Assembly: GCA_964343355.1 (NCBI GenBank)
Contig: CAYFJC010000001.1
Location: 111 to 64,110 of the forward strand
Reading direction: 5' to 3'
Source: an uncultured Gammaproteobacteria bacterium
GTDB lineage: Bacteria > Pseudomonadota > Gammaproteobacteria > Magnimaribacterales > D2472
Length of the DNA stretch: 64,000 nucleotides
Under the pieces are notes generated by a model, which ran no database searches, was not told the origin of the DNA, and saw nothing but the letters and a program-made list of their open reading frames with translations. Positions 1,945 through 17,456 of the stretch are shown piece by piece (position 1 is the first letter of the stretch; each line of letters starts with the position of its first letter). A program made the position numbers and the translations under genes.

Positions 1945-3195
1945 TTAGGTTCTAGCAATATTTGAAGACTCAACCTCACCAGCCTCGTTGACCGTATATT
2001 TTCCTAGCTCATGCCTAGCAACTGCTCTTCTGTGTACTTCATCAGGACCGTCTGCAAGCCTTAATGTTCTCATATGAGCATACATGCTTGCTAATGGATA
2101 AACCTGCGAAACACCTGCGCCACCATGCATTTGAATAGCTCTGTCTATTATGTCGCATACGATATTTGGAGCTACAACCTTAATTTGAGCAATCTCACTA
2201 GCTGCAACCTTATTTCCAACTGTATCCATCATTCGAGCAGCTCTTAGAGTTAATAGTCTTGCCTGATCTAGCTCAATTCTTGAATTAGCAATAATATCCA
2301 TATTTCCACCTAGTCTTGCTAATGGCTTCCCAAATGCAACTCTAGATAAACTTTGTTTACACATCATAGCTAAAGCTCTTTCACCTAATCCAATAGCTCT
2401 CATACAATGATGAATTCTTCCTGGTCCCAATCTGCCTTGAGCAATTTCAAAACCTCTGCCTTCACCAAGTAATAAATTTTCTTTTGGCACTCTAACGTTA
2501 GTAAATTTCATATGAGCATGGCCATGTGGCGCATCGTCATATCCAAAAACATGCATCATTTTAATAATTTCAACACCCTCAGCATCCATAGGAACAAGTA
2601 TTTGAGATTGTCTTTGATGTCTTTGATTTTCAGGATTAGTTACACACATAAAAATGATAAATTTACATCTAGGATCGCCGGCACCCGATGTCCACCACTT
2701 TTCTCCATTAATAACATACTCATCGCCATCTAATACAGCTGATGAAGCTATGTTTGTTGCGTCTGAAGATGCTACACCTGGCTCAGTCATACCAAAAGCT
2801 GAACGAATTTCACCATTTAGCAATGGCTTGAGATACATCTCTTTATGTTCATCTGAACCATATCTTTCAAGAACTTCCATATTTCCAGTATCAGGTGCTG
2901 AGCAATTAAATACTTCTGATGAAATTCCATGAGCTCCCATAACCTCTGCTAAGTGAGCATATTCAAGATTAGTTAATCCAGCGCCATTTTCACTTTCTGG
3001 AAGAAACATATTCCATAGTCCAGCAGCTCTAGCTTTAACTTTCATCTCTTCCATTATCGGCGGAACTACCCATGTACCATCAGCATCCTTAGATTGCTCA
3101 TGATATAAAGTTTCATTATGAGCAACTTCCTTATTAATAAAATCTTGAACTCTATTTATAAGGTCTTGCGCTTTTTGACTGATTTCATATTCCAT
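1945..3195 (-). CDS. Acyl-CoA dehydrogenase, ACAD10/11 (FadE2)-like
   Basis: 416 aa. It has the [11 protein letters not shown] motif, GEKWWTSGA, and the C-terminal [11 protein letters not shown] typical of the ACAD10/11-type subgroup. It is divergent from a LysR regulator. Confidence 0.85.
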
Positions 3196-3317
3196 CTTTA
3201 CTCTCCCTTCTAAACTGCAACCAATATGGTATTATAAGTTTCGTGAATGTCTTGTTTATAGTTAATACAATGATAACTTCACATGACTTTCAATACTAGT
3301 TAGGAATTAAAAAAACT

Positions 3318-9449: not shown

Positions 9450-12400
9450 TTAATTTTTTATTATCGTTAATTTAGATTTTGTATTCTTTGCCTCAGCTGC
9501 ATTCTGTACTTTTAATTTAGAGATCATAGAAGATGCGCTTAGGCCTCCTCCGCTTGATCGAGTTTTAAGATATACACTTGTAGCCTCAACATCTCTATCA
9601 ACTAGAGTAAAGAATTCATATTGTGATGTAACTTCAGGGTACTGCTCCCAAATCTCTCCTGTACCTCTAATATAGCCATCACTATCAATATTGGTAGAGA
9701 AAAGCCAATAATAACTTCCTATATCAATATCACTAACGTTAAAGGTTAAGCCACCAGCACCTAGCTGAACTCTCCAACCTTTATAATATTCGCCATCTTC
9801 ATCATAAAGATACGCTAGTACATATCCAATCTCCGGACTGGTTCTTTCTGCACCAGAAGAATATGTAAAGGTAACATTCGATTTAGTACCGTCGCTTAAT
9901 TCGGCAATAATACTTCCAGTATAAGTACCATCAGGAACTTCTCCTCTTGTAAGAGTAACTTTATAAGTTCCATAACCATCGCTATCAACATCGATTGTTG
10001 AAATTGATGTTAGTGAAGAATTGGATGAAACTAATTGAGTAACAGTAAGATCACCAGTTCCCACTTTACTCACAGTTATTGTCTTTTCAGTATCTGTATA
10101 ACCAAATACAAAAGAACCAGGAGTTATGGTTGCATATGTAAAATCAAGTCCGCCATCAATTAAGTTGGTAAAGGCTTTATCAAGGTTTATTAACCCATAA
10201 CCAAATTCATCATCCTTGCCTTCTGTTCCTATGTCATCAGTAAAGAAACCAGATTTAATAAATGCTTCCATTTGAATAGCATCCCATTCAGGTTTTAACG
10301 CGTATATTAAAGCAATAGCTGCAGAGGCATGAGGAGCTGCCATAGATGTTCCTTGATAATAAGTAAGATTTTCACTTCCATCAAAAGCCAAAATACCATC
10401 AGACTGACCATCACCATTTAAATCAGTACCTGTAGTTCCACCTGGAGCTGCTAGATCTACTGCATCATTGTAAGTTGAATAATATGCTCTTTGTGAAAGA
10501 GGATTAACTGCGGCAACTGAAATAACATTATCGCACGATGCGGGATAACCCTTAATTCCAGGAGATTCTTCAGCACTATTACCAGATGAAGCAACAACAG
10601 TTACACCACTATTAGTAACATCTAGAATTGCATTTCTATAAGCTGTGCTACAACCACCACCTATACTGCCTAAGCTCATATTTACTACTTTAATAGGTGC
10701 TGAGCCTGCGTAAACTTGGCCTGTAATATTAGGAAGTCCAGCAGCAAATAACATAGAGTTTGTAACGTCTGATTGTGAAGCTCCTCCACTAGGACCAAAG
10801 ACTCTAAATGGAACAGTATGAATTCCAAATCCGTTTATATTATTTCCATCATTTGCCGCAGAAATTGTTGTAGCTACATGAGTTCCATGAGAGTTACTTG
10901 CAACATCAACTGCGTCAGTAGGATCAAAATCATTATCAATAAAATCAAAACCGCCATCTAAGAAATGAGAGGTTGTCCATGCAGATGATGTTGTGTTTGG
11001 TGAACCAGAATCAATTACAGCAACAGCAACATCTTTAACCTCTTGACCTGTTGCATTGAGAACTTTCTCTAAGCCCATTAATTGAAGACCCCACTGATAA
11101 TCCCAATAAGTATCTTTGGTAAAACCAAGTTTTTGATAAATCTTATTAAACTCGAGATTTAGTTTAGGATTAATATTTTTATAATGCTGGAGAATTTTCC
11201 ATTGTTTTAAATATAAAACTTGTTCGGAATTATTAGCTATTAAATCTTTAGAATCTAGATATGTTTCACTTCCAAATATAGTTGAATATTCATTTTCAAG
11301 ATTGAATTCAATAACTCTTAATCCCATGAAATCTGAATTATCGATATAAGAAAGTTTTTGATTTAGATCTTCATTTTGATTAAATTCAGGATATATATCC
11401 TCATAGGTATCAAGTTTACCTGAGAAGGATCTGTAAGATATAAACTCTCCTTTAACAAAGGCATCTTTGGAAGGAGTAAAGCTTGTACTTGATGCAGAAC
11501 CGCCTGGAGCAAGTAGTAAAGTATATTTACTAGCGCCTACGTCTTTTGCAACAACTGCATAATAAATACCAGAATCTGGAAGATTAATTTTTTGGTATTC
11601 ATCTGATGAGTCTGTAGTATATGAAAAATCAGTTATGACTCCATTTGCGTTATATAAAAGAAGTAGTGGTTTGTTAGTTACTATTGTGGTGTTACCGTCA
11701 GCATCCTCAACTTCTTGCTGATAATCTTCTACTGCAAGTTCAATCTGAAGTCCTGGAACAGTATCAATTTTATACCAATCTTCAGGGTCATCTCTTTGAA
11801 CAGAGTTATAAGATACATTTCCTTCTGCATCAAAAATTACATTACCATCTTCATCTCTAACAATAACTTCGACAAGCTTATCACCAACAAAACCAGTAAC
11901 TTCACTTGGGGTTATTAAGGTTGCAGCATCTTCTTTCGTATTATTAGGCACCTCAGGATAACCAACACCATTATTCATAGGTGTAGGAACATCTCCATCT
12001 AAGACTGTTGTGTTAGAGGTAAGAATGGTTTGTGTTAACGAGAAGGTATCTTTTAAATCTGTAACCTGAACGGTAAGATTTTGTTCTCTTGTTAAGCTAT
12101 TAGTGGTGTCTGTTACTGTAAAAGTAAGTTCGTAGTTATTGTCAGCATCAGCATCTGTTGGACCTTCATAATTAGCACCTTCTAGAGCATTAAATCTCAA
12201 GAAGCCGTTGGAGCCAAGTAAAAATTCAGCTGCATCAGCACCAGTCATAGTTACATCACCAAAGTCATCACCCTCAGGATCGACAACTTCTAAAGTTAGA
12301 ACAGTATTATCATTTTCTTCTATTAAGAAAACAGCAGGAAGGCCTACAAACTCCGGCGCCTCTGAAACATCAGTAATAATTATGCTAACTGCTTGAGCAA

Positions 12401-15400
12401 CTTCATTGCTTCCATCTGAAATTACAACATTAATTTCATATGTATTATTTGTATTAGCATCTGTTGGAACCTCATAATTAGAGGTAGCTGCAAAAGCTAA
12501 AACTCCACCTGTTGATAGAGTAAAGTCATCCGCATCATCACCAGTTAGTGAGAATGTTATTGCATTACCATCAGGATCTGAAGCGCTCACAGTAACAACA
12601 TCAATGGTATTTTCTTCTAGTGTATAAGAGGACTCTAAATCAGTGAATGTTGGAGGATCATTTGTTTCAAGAACAGTAACCGTTCCTGATTTTGTTGAGG
12701 TATTAACTGAATCATCTGCTTTTACAGTAAATTCATATACGTTATCACCATCAGTGTCAGTTGGTGATGCAAAAGAAGGACTTGAATTAAATACAATAAC
12801 TCCTTCTGAAGAAATAGATAACGCAGCAGCATCTGCACCAATTAGTGAAAGCGTTGGGGTGTCACCGTCAGCATCTGTAACTGTTACTGTTAAGACTGAC
12901 GTTTGTCCGTTAGAAACTTCTGTATTTGCAGCGAAGTCAGCAATAACAGGAGCATTATCATTAGCATTAGATACGTTAATGGTAATAGTTTGTGTTGCTG
13001 ATAAATTACCATCAGAAACTGTTGCTGTTGCCGTATAAGTTGTTTTTGTCTCGTAATCAGGCGCGGCTATAAAAGATAATTGTCCTGCTGCGCTTATAGA
13101 TAATTCAGATCCTGAGATAGAGAAACTCATTGAGTTTCCGTCTGCATCAGTTGCTGTAACTGTTCCAATAGCTGTTTGGTTTTCCGCAGCGCTAAATGAA
13201 GCAGATGAGGTAAATACTGGTGCGTTATCATTTAAGTTATTAATACTTACTGTAATATTTTGCGTAACTGAAGCCACGCCATCACTCACAGTAATAGTTG
13301 CTGTATATGAAGACTTAGTTTCATAGTCAGGAACCGATGCAAAGGATAAGGCGCCGCTATCTGTAATAAGCAGCTCTGATCCCGATACGCTAAAGCTTAA
13401 CGAGCTATCATCAGCATCACTTGCTGTAACTGTAGCTATAGAAGTTTGATTTTCATCCGAACTAAAGCTTGCAGAAGATGTGAATACTGGTGCATTGTCA
13501 TTTAAGTTATTTACATTAACAGTTATAGCCTGTGTAGCTGATAGATCACCATCAGATGCAGTAACTGTTGCTGAATATGAAGATTTTGTTTCATAGTCAG
13601 GTGCTGTTACAAAAGACAAAGTGCCGTCTGAGGTTAAGGCTAAATCTGATCCTGAAATACTAAATGTTATAGACGAGCTATCAACATCATCTGCCGTAAC
13701 TGAACCAATGGTTGTTTGGTTTTCATCTGCATCAAAACTCGCTAAAGAAGTAAAGGTTGGCATCTCATTAACATCAGTAACATTTACAGTAATACTTTGA
13801 GTAGATGAATTAATTCCATCTGTTGCTGTTAGAGTTGCTGTATATGAAGGAGTTGTTTCAAAATCAGGCGCTGTTACAAAAGTAATAACACCTCCTGAAG
13901 TTACGGCTAGATCTGTCCCTGAAATGCTGAATGTTATAGATGAGCTATCAACATCTGTAGCGGTCGCAGTTCCAATAGTTGTTTGATTTTCTGGTGCACT
14001 AAAGGTTGCAGAAGATGTAATCACAGGAGCGACATCATCAACATCTGTAATTGCTACTGATATAGCTTGAGTAATCGCGGTTGCTCCATCAGTTACTGTT
14101 ACAGTGGCAGAATAGCTTGTTGTTGTTTCATAATCAGGTGCTGTTACAAAAGTTAGGATTCCTGATGAGGTTATAGCTAGCTCAGAACCAGTAATTGAGA
14201 ATGTTAATGAAAGATTATCAGCATCAGAAGCTGTAACAGTGCCAATAGTTGTCTGGTTTTCAGCAGCACTAAAACTGGCTAAAGAAGTAAATACTGGAGG
14301 GTTATCATTTAAGTTGTTGATACTTACTGTTAGATTCTGATCAGTTGTAGCAATTTCACCTGTAGCTGAAACTACAACTGAGTAAGTAGATTTTGTTTCA
14401 TAATCAGTTGCTGAATTGAATACCAACACTCCAGAACTAGAATCAAGAGTCATTACACTAGCGTCAGTCCCTGAAAGCGCATAGACAACTGTTGCGTCGA
14501 ATGGATCGACTGCTAATACTGTACCAATTTCAGTTTGATTCTCATCAGCATTTAGAGTTGCTGGTGTAGAGAAAACTGGGCCCTCAACATCAACATCAGA
14601 AATATTTACTTGAATATCTTGATCAGTTGTATTTACTCCATCAGAGGCAGTTACTTTTGCTGAGAATGAAGCTAGAGTTTCAAAATCTGGTCTTTGGCTA
14701 AATGTTAAAGCTCCTGAGTTAGAGGCACTTATTGCAGGAAAGCTGTTAGTGCTTGAGCTTACATCGCTACCCATTCCAGGATGAACGCTACAGTAATAAT
14801 ATAAAGCTGCAGGTGTATCTGCAGATACTGTGATAAGAGTAACTCCATCTGTTGAAGTATCAACACCGGCTGTATAAGCCTCGCCACTAGCATGCGTTCC
14901 ATCAGAAGTTGTTGAAAATCTAAATGGGTGAGCTGTTGGATGTTCGAGTCTATAAGTTTTACCAACTTCAAGGAAAAGTGGTTTCTTTTGGGCTCCACTG
15001 ATCACGTAGACATTGCCTGATCCGCTAGCATTAGCAGCTACAGAAACTTCTATTTTTTGAGTAACAGAGTTATCTACAGAATAGGTAATTGTATTCCCAT
15101 CATCAGCATCAGTCGTAGTAACTGAACCAATATCGAGTTGATTTTCAGCTATATTAAATGTTGTCTCAGATGTAAATACAGGAGCATTATCATTAACATC
15201 GATAACACTTACAGAAATATCTTGAGAACCTGAATTTACTCCATCAGATGCAGTAACTGTTGCTGAATATGAAGTTTTAGCTTCATAATCTGGCGTATCT
15301 ACAAATGATAAAACTCCAACAGAGGTAATGGATAACTCAGAACCAGAAATACTATATGTCAGTGATTGAGTATCAGCATCTGTCGCTACAACAGCACCAA

Positions 15401-17456
15401 TTGAAGATTGATTTTCGTTTGCACTAAAAGCTGCTGAAGAAGTGAAATTAGTTGGATTGTCATTTAAGTTAGTTATATCAATAGTTATATTTTCAGTTAG
15501 CTGATTTAGACCATCAGATACCGTTACCGCAGTTGTATATGATGATTTTGTTTCATAATCTGGAGCTACTACAAATGTTAACAATCCACTGCTTGTAATA
15601 GATACTTCGGAGCCGGTGTTGGAATATATAAGGGCATCTAGATCTGCATCTGAAGCATTAACGTTACCAATAGCAGTTTGGTTTTCAGGCGCATCAAAAG
15701 CTAATAAGGCAATAATAGGATTATTATCATTAAGATTATTTAGGTTAACTATTACATCTTTACTTAGTGTGTCTATTCCATCTGTAACAGAGACAGTTAT
15801 GGCATATGAACTTTGCTCTTCATAGTCTGGTGATGATGCAAAACTTAAAACATTTTCAGAAGATAAATTGAAACTTGTAGCATCTGCTCCAGTGATTGAA
15901 ACAGTTAGAGGCTCACTTTCTACATCACTTACATCGATACTAGTAACTGCTGTCTGATTTTCATCAACTGTATAATTTGTAAGTAGATTAGTAAATTTTG
16001 GAATATCATTCACTGAAGTAACAGTAATTGATATGCTTGATACAGAAGTTTGTCCAGCTTGGCTTAGTGTATAAGTAATTTCATCACTTCCAAAGAAATC
16101 ACTATCAGGAGTATAAGAAACTATATTATTAGATATTGATGCTGATCCATTAGTTGGTGCATCAATAGCAACAGATAATGTTGCAGTCGTATTGAAGGAA
16201 TCATTTGCTAGAACATTAATATCAATAGAGGTATCTTCATTAATAATAACTTTATCTGAAAGAGCGGTAATATCTGGAACTAGATCATTAACATCTACAT
16301 TTTGATCAGTAGCAACATAATTCAAAATATCTGTTTGATAACTAGTAAGAGTTGCAGTGGTAGCTGTTCCATTGGCTATTGCCTGAGCATCTGTTTGCAG
16401 GGTGCTAGTTGCAAAATCAAATATAGCAGTCGTATTCGCATCGCTAGCTTTGACCTGAACCACGGGAAGTACGGCAGCTAGTGCACTTATTGTATTAGCT
16501 TTATTAGTATCATCTAAGGTTAGAGATTTAAGAGTTATAACGTTATTTAGAACTTTAGTTATAAAAGCTTCCGTTTCAATATTAACTCTGGTTTCAGTAG
16601 CTGTATATTCTGTATCAAGCTCTTCAGCTATAGCTTTAAAATAGTCTTGAGTGGTCTCTGTTGTGGTATTGAGGTTATTCGTAATATTTTGCAGTGCGTA
16701 AGCAAGAATTGTGAGCTGGTTACCCTTCTCATATAAATAATCATTAATCCCGCCATCACCCTTTCCTACAACTGGATCAACAACACCAATATCAAGACTT
16801 GAATCTATACCAAGAGCTGCATTAACTAGACTGGCATCAGCCATAAATGCTGCAACTGAAGTAACTGGAGTAACAGCTTTAAAATCTGAATGACCAGCAA
16901 GCTTATGGATGATTAAAAGATTGTCTAAAGCATTACCAGAATCAAGATCGGTACCACCTAAACTAATAAGGTTTCCGTCTGAATATTTGATGGTGAATTT
17001 ACCATCATTATCCGATGTCGTTGTATCTTCATCACCATCAGCGGTATATGAATCATTGGTATCAATAAAAATATCAGCTTGTCTAATGTAGCCATCAACA
17101 GAAACACCATCAGTATTTCTATAACCTTCAACAATAGCTGAAGCAGATGCAGAGCCACCAGCACCAGTACAATTAATTCCAAAAGTATTGTCACCTGGAG
17201 TTGAGATAGTTACATCCTCGGTTCCGCTAATAGCCTTAGTGCCTGTCCAAGTTCCAGAAGCAGAACATGAAGTAGCATTAGTAGAAGACCAGGTTAAGGT
17301 AATAACCGTATCAAGAATAACAGAAGAAGATGATGCGCTAAGGGCTGCAGTCGGACTTGGCTCTGGAGGAGTTGGTGAACCACCGCCCCCACCGCCGCCA
17401 CATGCAGCAATAAATACTAAAGAAAACGCTATTGATATTAGATTTTTTATAAACAT
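9450..17456 (-). CDS. Giant (2668 aa) lipoprotein: Ig-like domain, about 13 cadherin-like repeats, cupredoxin-like module, PPC domain, subtilase (S8) domain, C-terminal beta-rich region
   Basis: Single uninterrupted ORF. The signal peptide has lipobox FIAAC followed by Gly7. Repeats carry DxD / xNDNxP calcium-site signatures (LNDNAPVF, ASDADDSSL etc.). The S8 triad motifs are AVIDSG, HGTHVA and GTSMAAPH. Confidence 0.9.
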   Translation of the reverse strand: MFIKNLISIAFSLVFIAACGGGGGGGSPTPPEPSPTAALSASSSSVILDTVITLTWSSTNATSCSASGTWTGTKAISGTEDVTISTPGDNTFGINCTGAGGSASASAIVEGYRNTDGVSVDGYIRQADIFIDTNDSYTADGDEDTTTSDNDGKFTIKYSDGNLISLGGTDLDSGNALDNLLIIHKLAGHSDFKAVTPVTSVAAFMADASLVNAALGIDSSLDIGVVDPVVGKGDGGINDYLYEKGNQLTILAYALQNITNNLNTTTETTQDYFKAIAEELDTEYTATETRVNIETEAFITKVLNNVITLKSLTLDDTNKANTISALAAVLPVVQVKASDANTTAIFDFATSTLQTDAQAIANGTATTATLTSYQTDILNYVATDQNVDVNDLVPDITALSDKVIINEDTSIDINVLANDSFNTTATLSVAIDAPTNGSASISNNIVSYTPDSDFFGSDEITYTLSQAGQTSVSSISITVTSVNDIPKFTNLLTNYTVDENQTAVTSIDVSDVESEPLTVSITGADATSFNLSSENVLSFASSPDYEEQSSYAITVSVTDGIDTLSKDVIVNLNNLNDNNPIIALLAFDAPENQTAIGNVNASDADLDALIYSNTGSEVSITSSGLLTFVVAPDYETKSSYTTAVTVSDGLNQLTENITIDITNLNDNPTNFTSSAAFSANENQSSIGAVVATDADTQSLTYSISGSELSITSVGVLSFVDTPDYEAKTSYSATVTASDGVNSGSQDISVSVIDVNDNAPVFTSETTFNIAENQLDIGSVTTTDADDGNTITYSVDNSVTQKIEVSVAANASGSGNVYVISGAQKKPLFLEVGKTYRLEHPTAHPFRFSTTSDGTHASGEAYTAGVDTSTDGVTLITVSADTPAALYYYCSVHPGMGSDVSSSTNSFPAISASNSGALTFSQRPDFETLASFSAKVTASDGVNTTDQDIQVNISDVDVEGPVFSTPATLNADENQTEIGTVLAVDPFDATVVYALSGTDASVMTLDSSSGVLVFNSATDYETKSTYSVVVSATGEIATTDQNLTVSINNLNDNPPVFTSLASFSAAENQTTIGTVTASDADNLSLTFSITGSELAITSSGILTFVTAPDYETTTSYSATVTVTDGATAITQAISVAITDVDDVAPVITSSATFSAPENQTTIGTATATDVDSSSITFSISGTDLAVTSGGVITFVTAPDFETTPSYTATLTATDGINSSTQSITVNVTDVNEMPTFTSLASFDADENQTTIGSVTADDVDSSSITFSISGSDLALTSDGTLSFVTAPDYETKSSYSATVTASDGDLSATQAITVNVNNLNDNAPVFTSSASFSSDENQTSIATVTASDADDSSLSFSVSGSELLITDSGALSFASVPDYETKSSYTATITVSDGVASVTQNITVSINNLNDNAPVFTSSASFSAAENQTAIGTVTATDADGNSMSFSISGSELSISAAGQLSFIAAPDYETKTTYTATATVSDGNLSATQTITINVSNANDNAPVIADFAANTEVSNGQTSVLTVTVTDADGDTPTLSLIGADAAALSISSEGVIVFNSSPSFASPTDTDGDNVYEFTVKADDSVNTSTKSGTVTVLETNDPPTFTDLESSYTLEENTIDVVTVSASDPDGNAITFSLTGDDADDFTLSTGGVLAFAATSNYEVPTDANTNNTYEINVVISDGSNEVAQAVSIIITDVSEAPEFVGLPAVFLIEENDNTVLTLEVVDPEGDDFGDVTMTGADAAEFLLGSNGFLRFNALEGANYEGPTDADADNNYELTFTVTDTTNSLTREQNLTVQVTDLKDTFSLTQTILTSNTTVLDGDVPTPMNNGVGYPEVPNNTKEDAATLITPSEVTGFVGDKLVEVIVRDEDGNVIFDAEGNVSYNSVQRDDPEDWYKIDTVPGLQIELAVEDYQQEVEDADGNTTIVTNKPLLLLYNANGVITDFSYTTDSSDEYQKINLPDSGIYYAVVAKDVGASKYTLLLAPGGSASSTSFTPSKDAFVKGEFISYRSFSGKLDTYEDIYPEFNQNEDLNQKLSYIDNSDFMGLRVIEFNLENEYSTIFGSETYLDSKDLIANNSEQVLYLKQWKILQHYKNINPKLNLEFNKIYQKLGFTKDTYWDYQWGLQLMGLEKVLNATGQEVKDVAVAVIDSGSPNTTSSAWTTSHFLDGGFDFIDNDFDPTDAVDVASNSHGTHVATTISAANDGNNINGFGIHTVPFRVFGPSGGASQSDVTNSMLFAAGLPNITGQVYAGSAPIKVVNMSLGSIGGGCSTAYRNAILDVTNSGVTVVASSGNSAEESPGIKGYPASCDNVISVAAVNPLSQRAYYSTYNDAVDLAAPGGTTGTDLNGDGQSDGILAFDGSENLTYYQGTSMAAPHASAAIALIYALKPEWDAIQMEAFIKSGFFTDDIGTEGKDDEFGYGLINLDKAFTNLIDGGLDFTYATITPGSFVFGYTDTEKTITVSKVGTGDLTVTQLVSSNSSLTSISTIDVDSDGYGTYKVTLTRGEVPDGTYTGSIIAELSDGTKSNVTFTYSSGAERTSPEIGYVLAYLYDEDGEYYKGWRVQLGAGGLTFNVSDIDIGSYYWLFSTNIDSDGYIRGTGEIWEQYPEVTSQYEFFTLVDRDVEATSVYLKTRSSGGGLSASSMISKLKVQNAAEAKNTKSKLTIIKN
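10167..11105 (-). other. Subtilisin-like serine protease (S8) catalytic domain, aa about 2118-2430
   Basis: The catalytic residues are Asp2149 (VAVIDSGS, codon 11012-11010), His2190 (SHGTHVATT, 10889-10887) and Ser2371 (GTSMAAPH, 10346-10344). They occur in the canonical D-H-S order. Confidence 0.85.
11505..11945 (-). other. Pre-peptidase C-terminal (PPC)-like domain, here placed N-terminal to the protease
   Basis: DPEDWYKIDTVPGLQIELAV ... GIYYAVVAKDVGASKYTLLLAPGG (aa about 1838-1984). The DWY..., YY..V and YTL... patterns are typical of PPC beta-sandwiches. Confidence 0.5.
12055..16010 (-). repeat. In-frame tandem array of cadherin-like repeats (period about 270 nt / 90 aa where measured)
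   Basis: Repeat boundaries read VNDIPKF, LNDNNPII, LNDNPTNF, VNDNAPVF, VDVEGPVF, LNDNPPVF, VDDVAPVI, VNEMPTF, LNDNAPVF (x2), ANDNAPVI, TNDPPTF, VSEAPEF. Two neighbouring PVF codon sets at 13220 and 13490 are exactly 270 nt apart. Copies are diverged: about 65% aa identity between neighbours (by eye), rising to about 80% nt in short stretches. Confidence 0.8.
14742..15068 (-). other. Cupredoxin-like (type-1 copper-like) module inserted in the repeat array, aa about 797-905
   Basis: The segment reads ...GKTYRLEHPTAHPFRFS...(45 aa)...LYYYCSVHPGMG. I place His843, Cys889, His892 and Met895 by counting codons (Cys codon at 14792-14790). The His-to-Cys spacing of 46 and the C-x2-H-x2-M pattern match amicyanin-type blue copper sites. 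Confidence 0.55.
17400..17456 (-). other. Signal peptide with lipobox (aa 1-19) of the giant protein
   Basis: MFIKNLISIAFSLVFIAAC: a basic N-terminus, a hydrophobic core and I-A-A-C, then GGGGGGGSPTPPEPSP. Confidence 0.8.

What the first reader, a model, noticed from the sequence alone, without database searches (positions are those of the whole stretch)
14742..15068. Amicyanin-like type-1 copper ligand pattern embedded inside the cadherin repeat array
Between two cadherin-like repeats lies a module of about 110 aa: QKIEVSVAANASGSGNVYVISGAQKKPLFLEVGKTYRLEHPTAHPFRFSTTSDGTHASGEAYTAGVDTSTDGVTLITVSADTPAALYYYCSVHPGMGSDV. His843 lies 46 residues before Cys889, followed by His892 and Met895. This matches the plastocyanin-family His...Cys spacing and the C-x2-H-x2-M loop of amicyanin. 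The flanking beta-strand-like segments (VYVISG, TYRLEH, TLITV, LYYYC) fit a cupredoxin sandwich. An electron-transfer-type blue copper site on an extracellular adhesin/protease is unexpected. It could be a redox module, a metal sensor, or a cupredoxin fold reused structurally.
Basis: partly seen in the sequence, partly recalled or inferred. Interest (0 to 1): 0.65.

Follow-up and report, generated by a model that had tools for sequence, protein, structure and literature searches.

The report
Blue-copper-type domain shared with marine phages
A 110-residue module inside a giant SAR86 surface protease is a plastocyanin-like (cupredoxin) domain with a complete blue-copper ligand set, and it belongs to a large, apparently undescribed family that also sits on the tail fibres and baseplates of marine cyanophages and pelagiphages.

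Summary
On the minus strand, aa 798-907 of a 2668-aa lipoprotein (cadherin stalk plus S8 protease) carry H843...C889-x2-H892-x2-M895. About 1.5e-4 such loops are expected by chance.

- AlphaFold gives a confident eight-stranded sandwich (pLDDT 90.8).
- Its best PDB matches are almost all cupredoxins.
- A profile-profile alignment puts the four residues in register with amicyanin's H53/C92/H95/M98.
- All four residues are intact in 210 of 233 and 115 of 117 homologous domain copies, and in 12 of 12 copies sampled from isolated phages.
- Losses are coupled.

Two corrections. The module is nested inside one cadherin repeat, not between two. It is also not an oddity of this protein: the family has about 7,250 cluster representatives, all sampled ones marine. 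It sits in SAR86 surface proteins and in virion proteins of 283 deposited phages (gp9-type baseplate connectors, tail fibres). No Pfam or NCBIfam model reaches threshold, and I found no paper describing it.

Copper binding, ligand geometry and function remain untested. My best guess is an exposed, metal-stapled recognition knob. A redox role is the main rival.

The parts
9450..17456 (-). Whole gene: 2668-aa cell-surface lipoprotein with a cadherin/Big_9 repeat stalk and a C-terminal subtilisin-type (S8) protease. SAR86B lineage.
   Evidence: ORF list and translation. Pfam Cadherin 1.2e-42, Big_9 1.4e-27, Peptidase_S8 7.6e-35. 62 near-identical cluster members, those listed at full length being 2668 aa, named 'subtilisin family serine protease'. 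98% identical module in SAR86B MAGs.
17400..17456 (-). Signal peptide with lipobox (…FIAAC19) followed by a poly-Gly linker. This is the N-terminal lipid anchor.
   Evidence: Read directly from the sequence MFIKNLISIAFSLVFIAACGGGGGGGS. The same lipobox plus poly-Gly occurs in other SAR86 proteins that carry the module.
12048..15998 (-). Array of about 14 cadherin-like repeats of about 90 aa (aa 487-1803), forming the stalk. The module interrupts the fourth repeat.
   Evidence: Self-repeat HMM hits. Pfam Cadherin/Big_9/Cadherin_4.
15066..15182 (-). N-terminal part (repeat-HMM positions 1-38, aa 759-797) of the cadherin repeat that hosts the insertion.
   Evidence: aa 759-797, HMM 1-38, iE 6e-10.
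14736..15065 (-). Cupredoxin-like module, aa 798-907, nested in the cadherin repeat. HMM envelope is aa 794-903.
   Evidence: 169 bits against the family HMM; AF2 pLDDT 90.8; cupredoxin fold matches; PHROG tail-fibre families, E down to 2e-15; hhalign against amicyanin/plastocyanin.
14589..14735 (-). C-terminal part (repeat-HMM positions 39-87, aa 908-956) of the interrupted cadherin repeat.
   Evidence: aa 908-956, HMM 39-87, iE 2e-14.
14928..14930 (-). His843 codon: proposed N-terminal His ligand, within the 'HPFRFS' motif.
   Evidence: 238/247 His in family copies. Invariant in A2. Aligns with amicyanin H53.
14790..14792 (-). Cys889 codon: proposed thiolate ligand, at the end of the seventh strand (LYYYC).
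   Evidence: 228/240 Cys. Invariant in A2. Aligns with amicyanin C92. Last residue of model strand 92-97.
14781..14783 (-). His892 codon: proposed C-terminal His ligand in the loop between strands 7 and 8.
   Evidence: 227/240 His. Aligns with amicyanin H95.
14772..14774 (-). Met895 codon: proposed axial ligand.
   Evidence: 228/239 Met. The variants are F, L, Q, V and E with H-C-H intact. Aligns with amicyanin M98.
14892..14894 (-). His855 codon ('DGTH'): a fifth conserved His specific to a subfamily. Role unknown.
   Evidence: 189/222 in top hits. Absent from gp9-type cyanophage copies.
10194..11036 (-). Peptidase_S8 catalytic domain (aa 2141-2421) with Asp/His/Ser triad motifs (VIDSG, HGTHVA, GTSMAAPH).
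   Evidence: Pfam. Motifs read from the translation.

Best explanation
The module is a genuine cupredoxin-fold domain with a complete mononuclear type-1 ('blue') copper ligand set: His843, Cys889, His892 and axial Met895, with the short C-x2-H-x2-M loop known from amicyanin. It belongs to a large marine family of display cupredoxin-like domains. These occur on SAR86 and other bacterial surface or secreted proteins, and on virion proteins of cyanophages and pelagiphages (the C-terminal domain of gp9-type baseplate connectors, tail fibres).

In this protein the module is spliced into a loop of the fourth cadherin repeat of a lipid-anchored stalk that carries an S8 protease at its far end. It should therefore protrude sideways from the stalk as a knob. 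By analogy with plastocyanin topology, where both termini lie opposite the metal site, the metal end should point outward.

Proposed working: the metal ties the loop after strand 4 (His843) to the strand 7-8 loop (Cys/His/Met) and rigidifies the exposed end of the sandwich. Copper is the most likely metal. That end then serves as a stable recognition or attachment surface, the same job its relatives would do at the distal ends of phage fibres.

Shown here: sequence, fold prediction, ligand register, family-wide conservation, coupled loss, nesting, distribution. Inferred: metal identity, outward orientation, recognition role. My probabilities are about 0.9 for a cupredoxin fold with a selected metal site, about 0.6 for copper as the physiological metal, and about 0.4-0.45 for a recognition/stability knob rather than redox as the main function.
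For: Fold:
- AF2 pLDDT 90.8, eight strands.
- The Foldseek PDB list is dominated by rusticyanin, laccase, plastocyanin, pseudoazurin and NiR.

Register:
- hhalign of the family profile against amicyanin plus two plastocyanins gives probability 77% and E 2e-5 over 72 columns, with all four ligands aligned. The amicyanin sequence was verified against 1AAC.
- A sub-threshold PDB hit to plastocyanin 1FA4 shows the same H/C/H register.

Selection:
- Each ligand is about 95% conserved.
- HCHM is intact in 210/233 copies and 115/117 copies, and in 12/12 copies from isolated phages down to 28% identity.
- Losses are coupled: 7 copies lost 3-4 ligands against 0.1 expected.
- Single-site variants are mainly axial Met to F/L/Q/V, as in natural T1 sites.
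- Within the SAR86B population the module is as invariant as the protease domain, 1.8% variable sites against 3-5% in the repeats.

Display context:
- Lipobox and stalk; nesting.
- PHROG tail-fibre and baseplate families.
- 283 marine phage records.
- T7-type fibre with the domain near its C-terminus.
- BFVD TM about 0.8 to cyanophage fibre proteins.
- Tandem arrays of up to 7 copies by the local HMM search; the remote profile search counted up to 9 matched stretches in one protein.
Against: - No Pfam or NCBIfam cupredoxin model matches the window module. Family members reach only sub-threshold scores: Copper-bind best 0.0036, and PF25489 at 24.9 bits against a cut-off of 27.
- TM-scores to solved cupredoxins are only about 0.5.
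- The Asn that follows the first His ligand in classical cupredoxins (PHN invariant) is replaced by Pro (HP in 227/247).
- No copper-handling or redox partner genes lie nearby.
- Every characterised type-1 site is an electron-transfer centre (own knowledge). This argues against a purely structural role.
- Virion proteins fold in the host cytoplasm, where zinc rather than copper might fill the site (inference).
- Conservation was measured on high-scoring hits plus 12 phage samples, not on the whole set of about 7,250.
Confidence: 0.6

Rival explanations
1. Redox module. The domain is a working electron-transfer or oxidase-type blue copper centre at the cell or virion surface. It could oxidise Fe(II) or Cu(I), react with superoxide, or act as a redox-triggered switch during adsorption.
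For: - The complete T1 ligand set, including the potential-tuning axial Met, is kept at 90-98%.
- The axial variants F/L/Q mirror redox tuning seen in laccases and stellacyanin (own knowledge).
- One relative (L004, Porticoccaceae) fuses the domain directly to an imelysin/Peptidase_M75 domain. This is the EfeO-type cupredoxin+M75 layout of an iron-uptake component.
- The nearest Pfam family, PF25489, is named after a plant cytochrome b561/DOMON protein.
- All characterised T1 sites are ET centres (own knowledge).
Against: - There is no second cofactor, partner or catalytic copper site in the window protein or in the phage fibre proteins.
- The residues flanking Cys are Tyr and Ser/Thr, not the His-Cys-His of multicopper oxidases.
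- No redox genes lie nearby.
- Virions have no electron source.
- The M75 fusion was seen once among 278 sampled proteins and 22 loci.
- The module sits about four repeats away from the membrane anchor.
Confidence: 0.3
2. Structural metal site without copper, or no metal at all. The cupredoxin scaffold is reused as a rigid beta-sandwich spacer. The four residues are kept because they bind Zn(II) or simply pack the loop.
For: - Tandem arrays of up to 7 copies (up to 9 matched stretches per protein) and placement in stalks and fibres are typical of structural beta-sandwich modules.
- Phage proteins fold in the cytoplasm, where Zn is more available than Cu (inference).
- Degenerate copies that lost 3-4 ligands persist inside multi-copy proteins, so the fold tolerates loss.
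- Axial Met to L/F/V is also compatible with mere hydrophobic packing.
Against: - A single buried Cys with two His and a Met conserved at about 95% across sequences of 28-40% identity is hard to explain without a soft metal. Met is not a usual Zn ligand (own knowledge).
- Coupled loss of the four residues indicates that they work as one unit.
Confidence: 0.15
3. Artefact or chance. The motif is a coincidence within an Ig/cadherin-like repeat, or the module is an assembly chimera or a recent phage fragment in the SAR86 gene.
For: - 'YYC' also occurs in Ig light chains, which appear among weak PDB sequence hits.
- The domain's relatives are abundant in phages.
Against: - The expected chance frequency is 1.5e-4.
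- The repeat HMM does not match the module.
- The 12 full-length 2668-aa members retrieved from the 62-member cluster all carry it, across many metagenomes.
- GC content matches the flanks.
- The closest relatives are other SAR86 proteins at 56-66% identity, while phage copies are 28-48% identical. It is therefore a long-resident SAR86 subfamily.
Confidence: 0.02

Closest known systems
Amicyanin (Paracoccus denitrificans, PDB 1AAC)
   Same: Cupredoxin fold. Identical ligand-loop length and pattern: C92-T-P-H95-P-F-M98 against C889-S-V-H892-P-G-M895. The upstream His ligand lies in an 'L.V..G.T…H..F' strand context. All four ligands align.
   Different: There is no family-level sequence match. 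The His-Cys spacing is 46 rather than 39. The ligand His is followed by Pro, not Asn. Amicyanin is a soluble periplasmic partner of methylamine dehydrogenase, and there is no mau context here. This module is one bead of a 2668-aa surface protein.
Plastocyanin / pseudoazurin / rusticyanin (classical single-domain blue copper proteins, Pfam PF00127)
   Same: Best structural matches: rusticyanin at E 2.8e-4, and plastocyanin and pseudoazurin at TM about 0.5. His-Cys spacing is like plastocyanin. Sub-threshold Copper-bind hits occur in 11 of 46 family members. A PDB plastocyanin alignment has H, C and H in register.
   Different: All scores are below Pfam's gathering score. The loop is shorter than in plastocyanin and rusticyanin. 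The family has its own signature (GN.Y.I.G … TY.F … HP[FL]RFS..DG.H … Y..GV … LYYYC..H..MG). It is a module of multidomain extracellular or virion proteins rather than a soluble carrier.
EfeO-type cupredoxin (Cup) domain fused to imelysin/M75
   Same: One relative (L004) has exactly this two-domain order, with the present domain in the Cup position.
   Different: The window protein has no M75 domain. The fusion was found only once.
PF25489, At5g54830-like domain (N-terminal domain of a plant cytochrome b561/DM13/DOMON protein)
   Same: It is the most frequent Pfam near-hit. 13 of 46 members match, and the best covers profile positions 24-119 of 126 at 24.9 bits.
   Different: The match is below the 27-bit cut-off, and the window module itself gives no hit. 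I could not check whether PF25489 members keep the four ligands.
Iron-binding HxH motifs of phage tail fibres (T4 gp37; 'Ferrojan horse' idea)
   Same: It is a precedent for metal ions built into the receptor-binding apparatus of phages, including marine ones (PMC11705849).
   Different: The metal differs (Fe in octahedral His sites of a trimeric fibre shaft) and so does the fold. Here the site is a mononuclear Cys/His2/Met site inside a globular cupredoxin domain. The papers searched describe no copper analogue.

Membership tests
Cupredoxin superfamily / type-1 blue copper proteins | Eight-stranded Greek-key beta-sandwich (cupredoxin fold) | tested here: met
Cupredoxin superfamily / type-1 blue copper proteins | Ligand set His (after strand 4) plus Cys-xn-His-xm-Met, with Cys at the end of strand 7 and His/Met in the loop to strand 8 | tested here: met
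   H843 precedes strand 53-56. C889 ends strand 92-97. H892 and M895 lie in the loop before strand 106-110. All four are in register with amicyanin's ligands.
Cupredoxin superfamily / type-1 blue copper proteins | Ligands conserved among homologues | tested here: met
   About 95% conservation per site. HCHM intact in 210/233 and 115/117 copies and in 12/12 isolate-phage copies. Losses are coupled.
Cupredoxin superfamily / type-1 blue copper proteins | The four ligand atoms converge on one metal position (geometry) | not testable with these tools
   Model coordinates are not exposed. Geometry is only inferred from the register and the fold match.
Cupredoxin superfamily / type-1 blue copper proteins | Binds copper with a roughly 600 nm charge-transfer band and small A-parallel EPR | not testable with these tools
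   Requires expression and spectroscopy.
Pfam PF00127 Copper-bind (plastocyanin/azurin family) | Score at or above the gathering threshold (21.2 bits) | tested here: not met
   The window module gives no hit at E<=1. The best family member has E 0.0036, and the two members examined scored 13.7-14.4 bits.
Pfam PF00127 Copper-bind (plastocyanin/azurin family) | Asn immediately after the N-terminal His ligand (His-Asn) | tested here: not met
   PHN is invariant in amicyanin and plastocyanins. The family has His-Pro in 227/247 copies.
Amicyanin (NCBIfam/TIGR amicyanin; MADH partner) | C-x2-H-x2-M ligand loop | tested here: met
   CSVHPGM against CTPHPFM, aligned without gaps.
Amicyanin (NCBIfam/TIGR amicyanin; MADH partner) | Family-level sequence match and a methylamine dehydrogenase gene context | tested here: not met
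   No NCBIfam hit. The neighbours are an MFS transporter, PNP, thioredoxin, acyl-CoA dehydrogenases, alkyl sulfatase and MnmC.
PF25489 At5g54830-like domain | Score at or above the gathering threshold (27 bits) | tested here: not met
   The window module gives no hit. The best relative scores 24.9 bits over profile positions 24-119 of 126.
Marine virion/surface cupredoxin-like domain (PHROGs 27200, 677, 30742, 6005, 708; no curated name) | Significant match to the domain shared by cyanophage/pelagiphage tail-fibre and baseplate proteins | tested here: met
   The window module scores phrog_27200 2.3e-15, phrog_677 2.7e-12 and phrog_30742 2.6e-10. tblastn hits 283 phage records. BFVD TM is 0.78-0.84.
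Cadherin-like repeat | Matches the repeat profile of the surrounding array | tested here: not met
   The repeat HMM skips aa 798-907 and resumes in register on either side.
EfeO-type Cup+M75 protein | Cupredoxin domain fused to an imelysin/M75 domain | tested here: not met
   No M75 domain in the window protein. It is present only in relative L004.

The most novel reading that the evidence does not exclude
Type-1 copper centres are a built-in, functional part of the host-recognition apparatus of the ocean's dominant phages (gp9-type baseplate connectors of cyanomyoviruses, T7-like pelagiphage fibres) and of SAR86 surface enzymes. Adsorption or surface attachment would then be copper- or redox-dependent, a copper counterpart of the iron-in-tail-fibre idea. 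This would be the first redox cofactor known in a virion.
Probability: 0.15. Interest if true: 0.85.

Novelty: new variant of a known kind. Interest (0 to 1): 0.62.

Why it matters
**A large unnamed family.** The cupredoxin fold and the type-1 site are textbook, but this family has no curated model. It has about 7,250 cluster representatives at 50% identity, and no paper in the searched library describes it. It therefore accounts for a domain in thousands of marine proteins now labelled hypothetical, tail fibre or structural. These include a core baseplate protein of T4-like cyanophages.

**If the site binds copper.** Virions of the most abundant marine phages would carry defined copper centres. 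T4 gp9 is present at 18 copies per virion (own knowledge), which would set the expected copper count if cyanophage gp9 is the same. That makes two questions directly testable: whether trace-metal status affects phage adsorption, and why a blue-copper site would be selected where no electron-transfer chain exists.

**Bulk copper chemistry.** The sites would not matter for bulk copper speciation. A rough estimate of 1e10 virions per litre with tens of sites each gives well under 1 pM (own estimate).

**For SAR86.** An uncultured, abundant clade turns out to decorate several surface lipoproteins and hydrolases with the same module.

**Domain nesting.** This is a clean example of a cupredoxin inserted inside a cadherin repeat.

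Tried and rejected
- **Direct family searches on the module.** Pfam, NCBIfam, and PDB sequence searches with the single sequence and with the 13-sequence profile gave nothing significant. The only hits were chance Ig light-chain matches sharing 'YYC'.
- **Single-sequence hhalign against amicyanin.** It aligned only the first His region, with probability 3.7%. Adding two plastocyanins gave the full-length alignment.
- **Model coordinates.** They are not exposed, so I could not measure ligand distances.
- **The search for related loci with the diverse alignment A2.** It failed for lack of a conserved stretch. A1 worked, but it searches only the HP[FL]RFSTTS pattern, so the genome survey is biased towards the SAR86-like subfamily.
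- **More cupredoxin+M75 fusions.** I looked among 278 sampled proteins and found none.
- **Literature searches.** I tried At5g54830; cupredoxin with cadherin/adhesin, tail fiber or cyanophage; SAR86 with cadherin/subtilisin; Ferrojan horse with copper; and blue copper or plastocyanin-like with baseplate or virion. None found a description of this domain.
- **Readings considered and rejected.** CuA site: it needs two Cys and only one is present. Recent phage insertion or assembly chimera is ruled out.
Full report
**1. The observation.**
The plus-strand translation of 14742-15068 is full of stops. It lies in ORF 9450..17456 (-), 2668 aa.
- Residue numbers are right: H843, C889, H892 and M895, with H839 and H855 also in the module.
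- The protein has only 6 Cys, 12 His and 15 Met. The expected number of C-x2-H-x2-M loops is 1.5e-4, and 1 of 20,000 composition-preserving shuffles had one.
- There is a single copy in the window.

**2. The host protein.**
- The N-terminus (MFIKNLISIAFSLVFIAAC-GGGGGGG) is a lipoprotein signal, read directly.
- Pfam finds Cadherin (1.2e-42, 9 stretches), Big_9, Cadherin_4, and Peptidase_S8 at aa 2141-2421.
- The S8 triad motifs are present.
- Neighbouring genes are housekeeping: MFS transporter, PNP, thioredoxin-like, DUF4345, two acyl-CoA dehydrogenases, alkyl sulfatase and MnmC. None handles copper.
- GC content is about 34% and uniform across the window.
- The module is 98% identical to SAR86B MAGs.
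- The exact protein is in public collections within a cluster of 62 members. Those listed at full length are 2668 aa, and the source names are 'subtilisin family serine protease'.

**3. Nesting.**
I built an HMM from five canonical 90-aa repeats of this protein. It matches positions 1-38 at aa 759-797 and positions 39-87 at aa 908-956, with full repeats on both sides. So the 110-aa module (aa 798-907) is inserted into a loop of one cadherin repeat, not between two repeats.
- A related metagenome fragment (P0002) has the module between repeats, so both arrangements exist.
- Nesting requires the module's termini to be adjacent. In plastocyanin-type topology both termini lie at the end opposite the copper site (own knowledge). 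The metal end should therefore point away from the stalk. This is an inference.

**4. Fold.**
I built a 46-sequence alignment of diverse domain copies (A2). With it, AlphaFold2 gives pLDDT 90.8 and pTM 0.83, all-beta, with strands at 7-16, 23-27, 35-38, 42-46, 53-56, 80-84, 92-97 and 106-110.
- H843 (model residue 51) sits just before strand 53-56. C889 (model residue 97) ends strand 92-97. H892 and M895 lie in the loop before the last strand. This is the canonical type-1 arrangement.
- Foldseek against the PDB returns almost only cupredoxins: rusticyanin (2.8e-4), laccases and other multicopper oxidases, plastocyanins, pseudoazurin and nitrite reductases, with TM 0.42-0.55.

**5. Sequence-level membership.**
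- The module alone hits no cupredoxin model in Pfam or NCBIfam and nothing meaningful among PDB sequences.
- Scanning the 46 family members one by one shows two recurrent sub-threshold families: PF25489 At5g54830-like (13 members; best 2.1e-5, 24.9 bits against a cut-off of 27, nearly full length) and PF00127 Copper-bind (11 members; best 0.0036).
- The A2 profile finds plastocyanins in the PDB at E of about 0.2. The alignment to 1FA4 puts the first His, the Cys and the second His on plastocyanin's ligands.
- I recalled the amicyanin sequence and verified it as identical to 1AAC. I combined it with two PDB plastocyanin sequences.
- hhalign of A2 against this small alignment gives probability 77% and E 2e-5 over 72 columns. 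H843/C889/H892/M895 fall on amicyanin H53/C92/H95/M98, and the loops CSVHPGM and CTPHPFM align without gaps.
- One real difference: the Asn that follows the first His ligand in classical cupredoxins (PHN invariant) is Pro here (HP in 227/247 copies).

**6. Family and conservation.**
- A first search found 12 marine metagenome fragments. Two of them are labelled 'plastocyanin' by JGI.
- An exhaustive profile search found 7,251 cluster representatives at E<=1e-3 and 3,432 at E<=1e-10, with up to 9 matched stretches per protein. The local HMM search resolved up to 7 copies per protein.
- In 252 domain copies from the top 150 proteins, conservation is H843 238/247, C889 228/240, H892 227/240 and M895 228/239. 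H855 is 189/222, and H839 is not conserved.
- The four-residue pattern is intact in 210 of 233 copies.
- Losses are clustered: 7 copies lost 3-4 ligands against 0.1 expected under independence.
- Single losses are mostly at the axial position (F, L, Q, V, E with H-C-H intact), as in natural type-1 sites.
- A second, independent hit list gives 115 of 117 intact.
- These lists are score-biased. To offset that, I sampled 12 copies from isolated phages across the whole tblastn ranking, at 28-45% identity. All 12 keep H…C-x2-H-x2-M.
- Among 12 distinct full-length SAR86B variants (95.4-99.96% identical), the module has 2 variable sites in 110 (1.8%). The S8 domain also has 1.8%, against 3.3-5.2% in the repeats.

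**7. Where the family lives.**
- The window module matches PHROG families annotated as tail fibre, baseplate wedge/tail-fibre connector, baseplate wedge subunit and virion structural protein, with E down to 2.3e-15.
- tblastn finds it in 283 deposited phage genomes, and every one named is marine: Synechococcus 217, 'Cyanophage' 35, Prochlorococcus 22, Pelagibacter 4.
- In T4-like cyanomyoviruses it is the C-terminal domain of gp9.
- In a Pelagibacteraceae SAG it sits near the C-terminus of a T7-type tail fibre (Phage_T7_tail, 1.7e-36).
- A common 217-aa version lies between adaptor genes in phage contigs.
- BFVD models of cyanophage fibre proteins match at TM 0.78-0.84 and rmsd about 2 Å. Giant-virus 'beta-sandwich proteins' match more weakly.
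- Many relatives carry the domain at the extreme N- or C-terminus.
- On the cellular side, a pattern scan of species-representative genomes found 14 SAR86 or Porticoccaceae loci plus scattered marine MAGs. These include SAR86 lipoproteins with the domain at the very C-terminus. One is a large secreted protein that, by eye, carries carbohydrate-binding and esterase-like regions; I did not test this against Pfam. One Porticoccaceae protein has the domain directly followed by imelysin/Peptidase_M75 (8.1e-16), the EfeO-type layout.
- FG-GAP proteins also carry it.

**8. Interpretation.**
Shown:
- a real, selected, cupredoxin-fold domain with a full type-1 ligand set;
- nested in a cadherin repeat of a SAR86 surface protease;
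- a member of a big marine display family shared with phage virions.

Inferred:
- It binds a metal, most likely copper. A Cys/His2/Met set is a soft-metal site, and Met is not a usual Zn ligand.
- The metal staples the exposed end of the sandwich.
- The domain acts as a sideways-projecting recognition or attachment knob, as its distal position on phage fibres suggests.

The main rival is a true redox function. It is supported by the fact that every characterised T1 site transfers electrons, by the EfeO-like fusion and by the link to PF25489. It is weakened by the absence of any partner, second cofactor or electron source in virions. A Zn-filled or metal-free structural reuse cannot be excluded, particularly for phage proteins that fold in the cytoplasm.

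**9. Novelty.**
The kind (cupredoxin, T1 site) is well known, and automated pipelines occasionally call fragments 'plastocyanin'. The family as such has no curated model reaching threshold. Eight full-text searches found no description of a copper or cupredoxin domain in phage fibres or baseplates, or in SAR86 surface proteins. The nearest published idea concerns iron in HxH motifs of tail fibres (PMC11705849). I rate it a new variant of a known kind, with moderate-to-high interest that depends on experimental proof of copper binding.

Noticed in passing
L003, L009, L012 (whole ORFs), L010 partial; also P0003, P0009: This is a second SAR86 lipoprotein family. It has a lipobox plus poly-Gly linker, one cadherin repeat, and then a ~300-aa region with no Pfam match that contains a conserved 'ILEHLLHTITLGYD' motif (possibly metal-binding). 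The cupredoxin-like module sits at the very C-terminus.
   Followed up: partly
L004 (Porticoccaceae bacterium UBA1117), match at 3001-3315 and downstream: The module is fused directly upstream of an imelysin/Peptidase_M75 domain (E 8.1e-16), the EfeO-type cupredoxin+M75 architecture of iron-uptake systems. The upstream part of the ORF is masked by N. This was the only such fusion seen.
   Followed up: partly
window 14892-14894 (-), His855: A fifth His, in the very conserved 'RFSTTSDGTH' loop, is kept in 85% of top-scoring copies. It is absent from the gp9-type cyanophage copies. It could mark a subfamily-specific second site or interaction surface.
   Followed up: partly
window 11037-12047 (-), aa 1804-2140: The region between the repeat stalk and the S8 domain is the most variable part of the protein in the SAR86B population. 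It has 12.5% variable sites against 1.8-5% elsewhere, and no Pfam domain.
   Followed up: no
P0001, P0004, P0005 (metagenome fragments): These proteins end in 'LSLIHI' or 'LLYTSDAADE'. From my own knowledge these look like translations of read-through into sequencing adapter, so the apparent Met to Leu ligand change in P0005 would be an artefact. I did not check this.
   Followed up: no
BFVD hits: A0A481Z6J5, A0A481YVH3, A0A481Z7Q7; A0A0E3F583, V5URI3: Giant-virus 'beta-sandwich proteins' (Pithovirus LCPAC302/304, Marseillevirus LCMAC201) match the model at TM 0.70-0.76 and 21-31% identity. Cyanophage-encoded S8/S53 peptidase proteins (ACG-2014e/h) also contain a similar sandwich at TM about 0.6. 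This echoes the protease-plus-module combination of the window protein.
   Followed up: no
L015, L017 (Pelagibacteraceae single-cell genomes); L018, L019, L021, L022 (MAG bins): The copies in these 'cellular' assemblies sit in phage-type proteins: a T7 tail-fibre N-terminal domain, and small proteins like the 217-aa phage protein P0194. The contigs are probably phage or prophage sequence in infected cells or mis-binned.
   Followed up: partly
window 17100-17370 (-), aa 30-110; also L013 N-terminus: A small N-terminal domain with two Cys ('…TWSSTNATSCSASG…GINCTGAGG…') follows the lipid anchor. It recurs at the N-terminus of another SAR86 module-bearing lipoprotein. It has no family assignment.
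   Followed up: no
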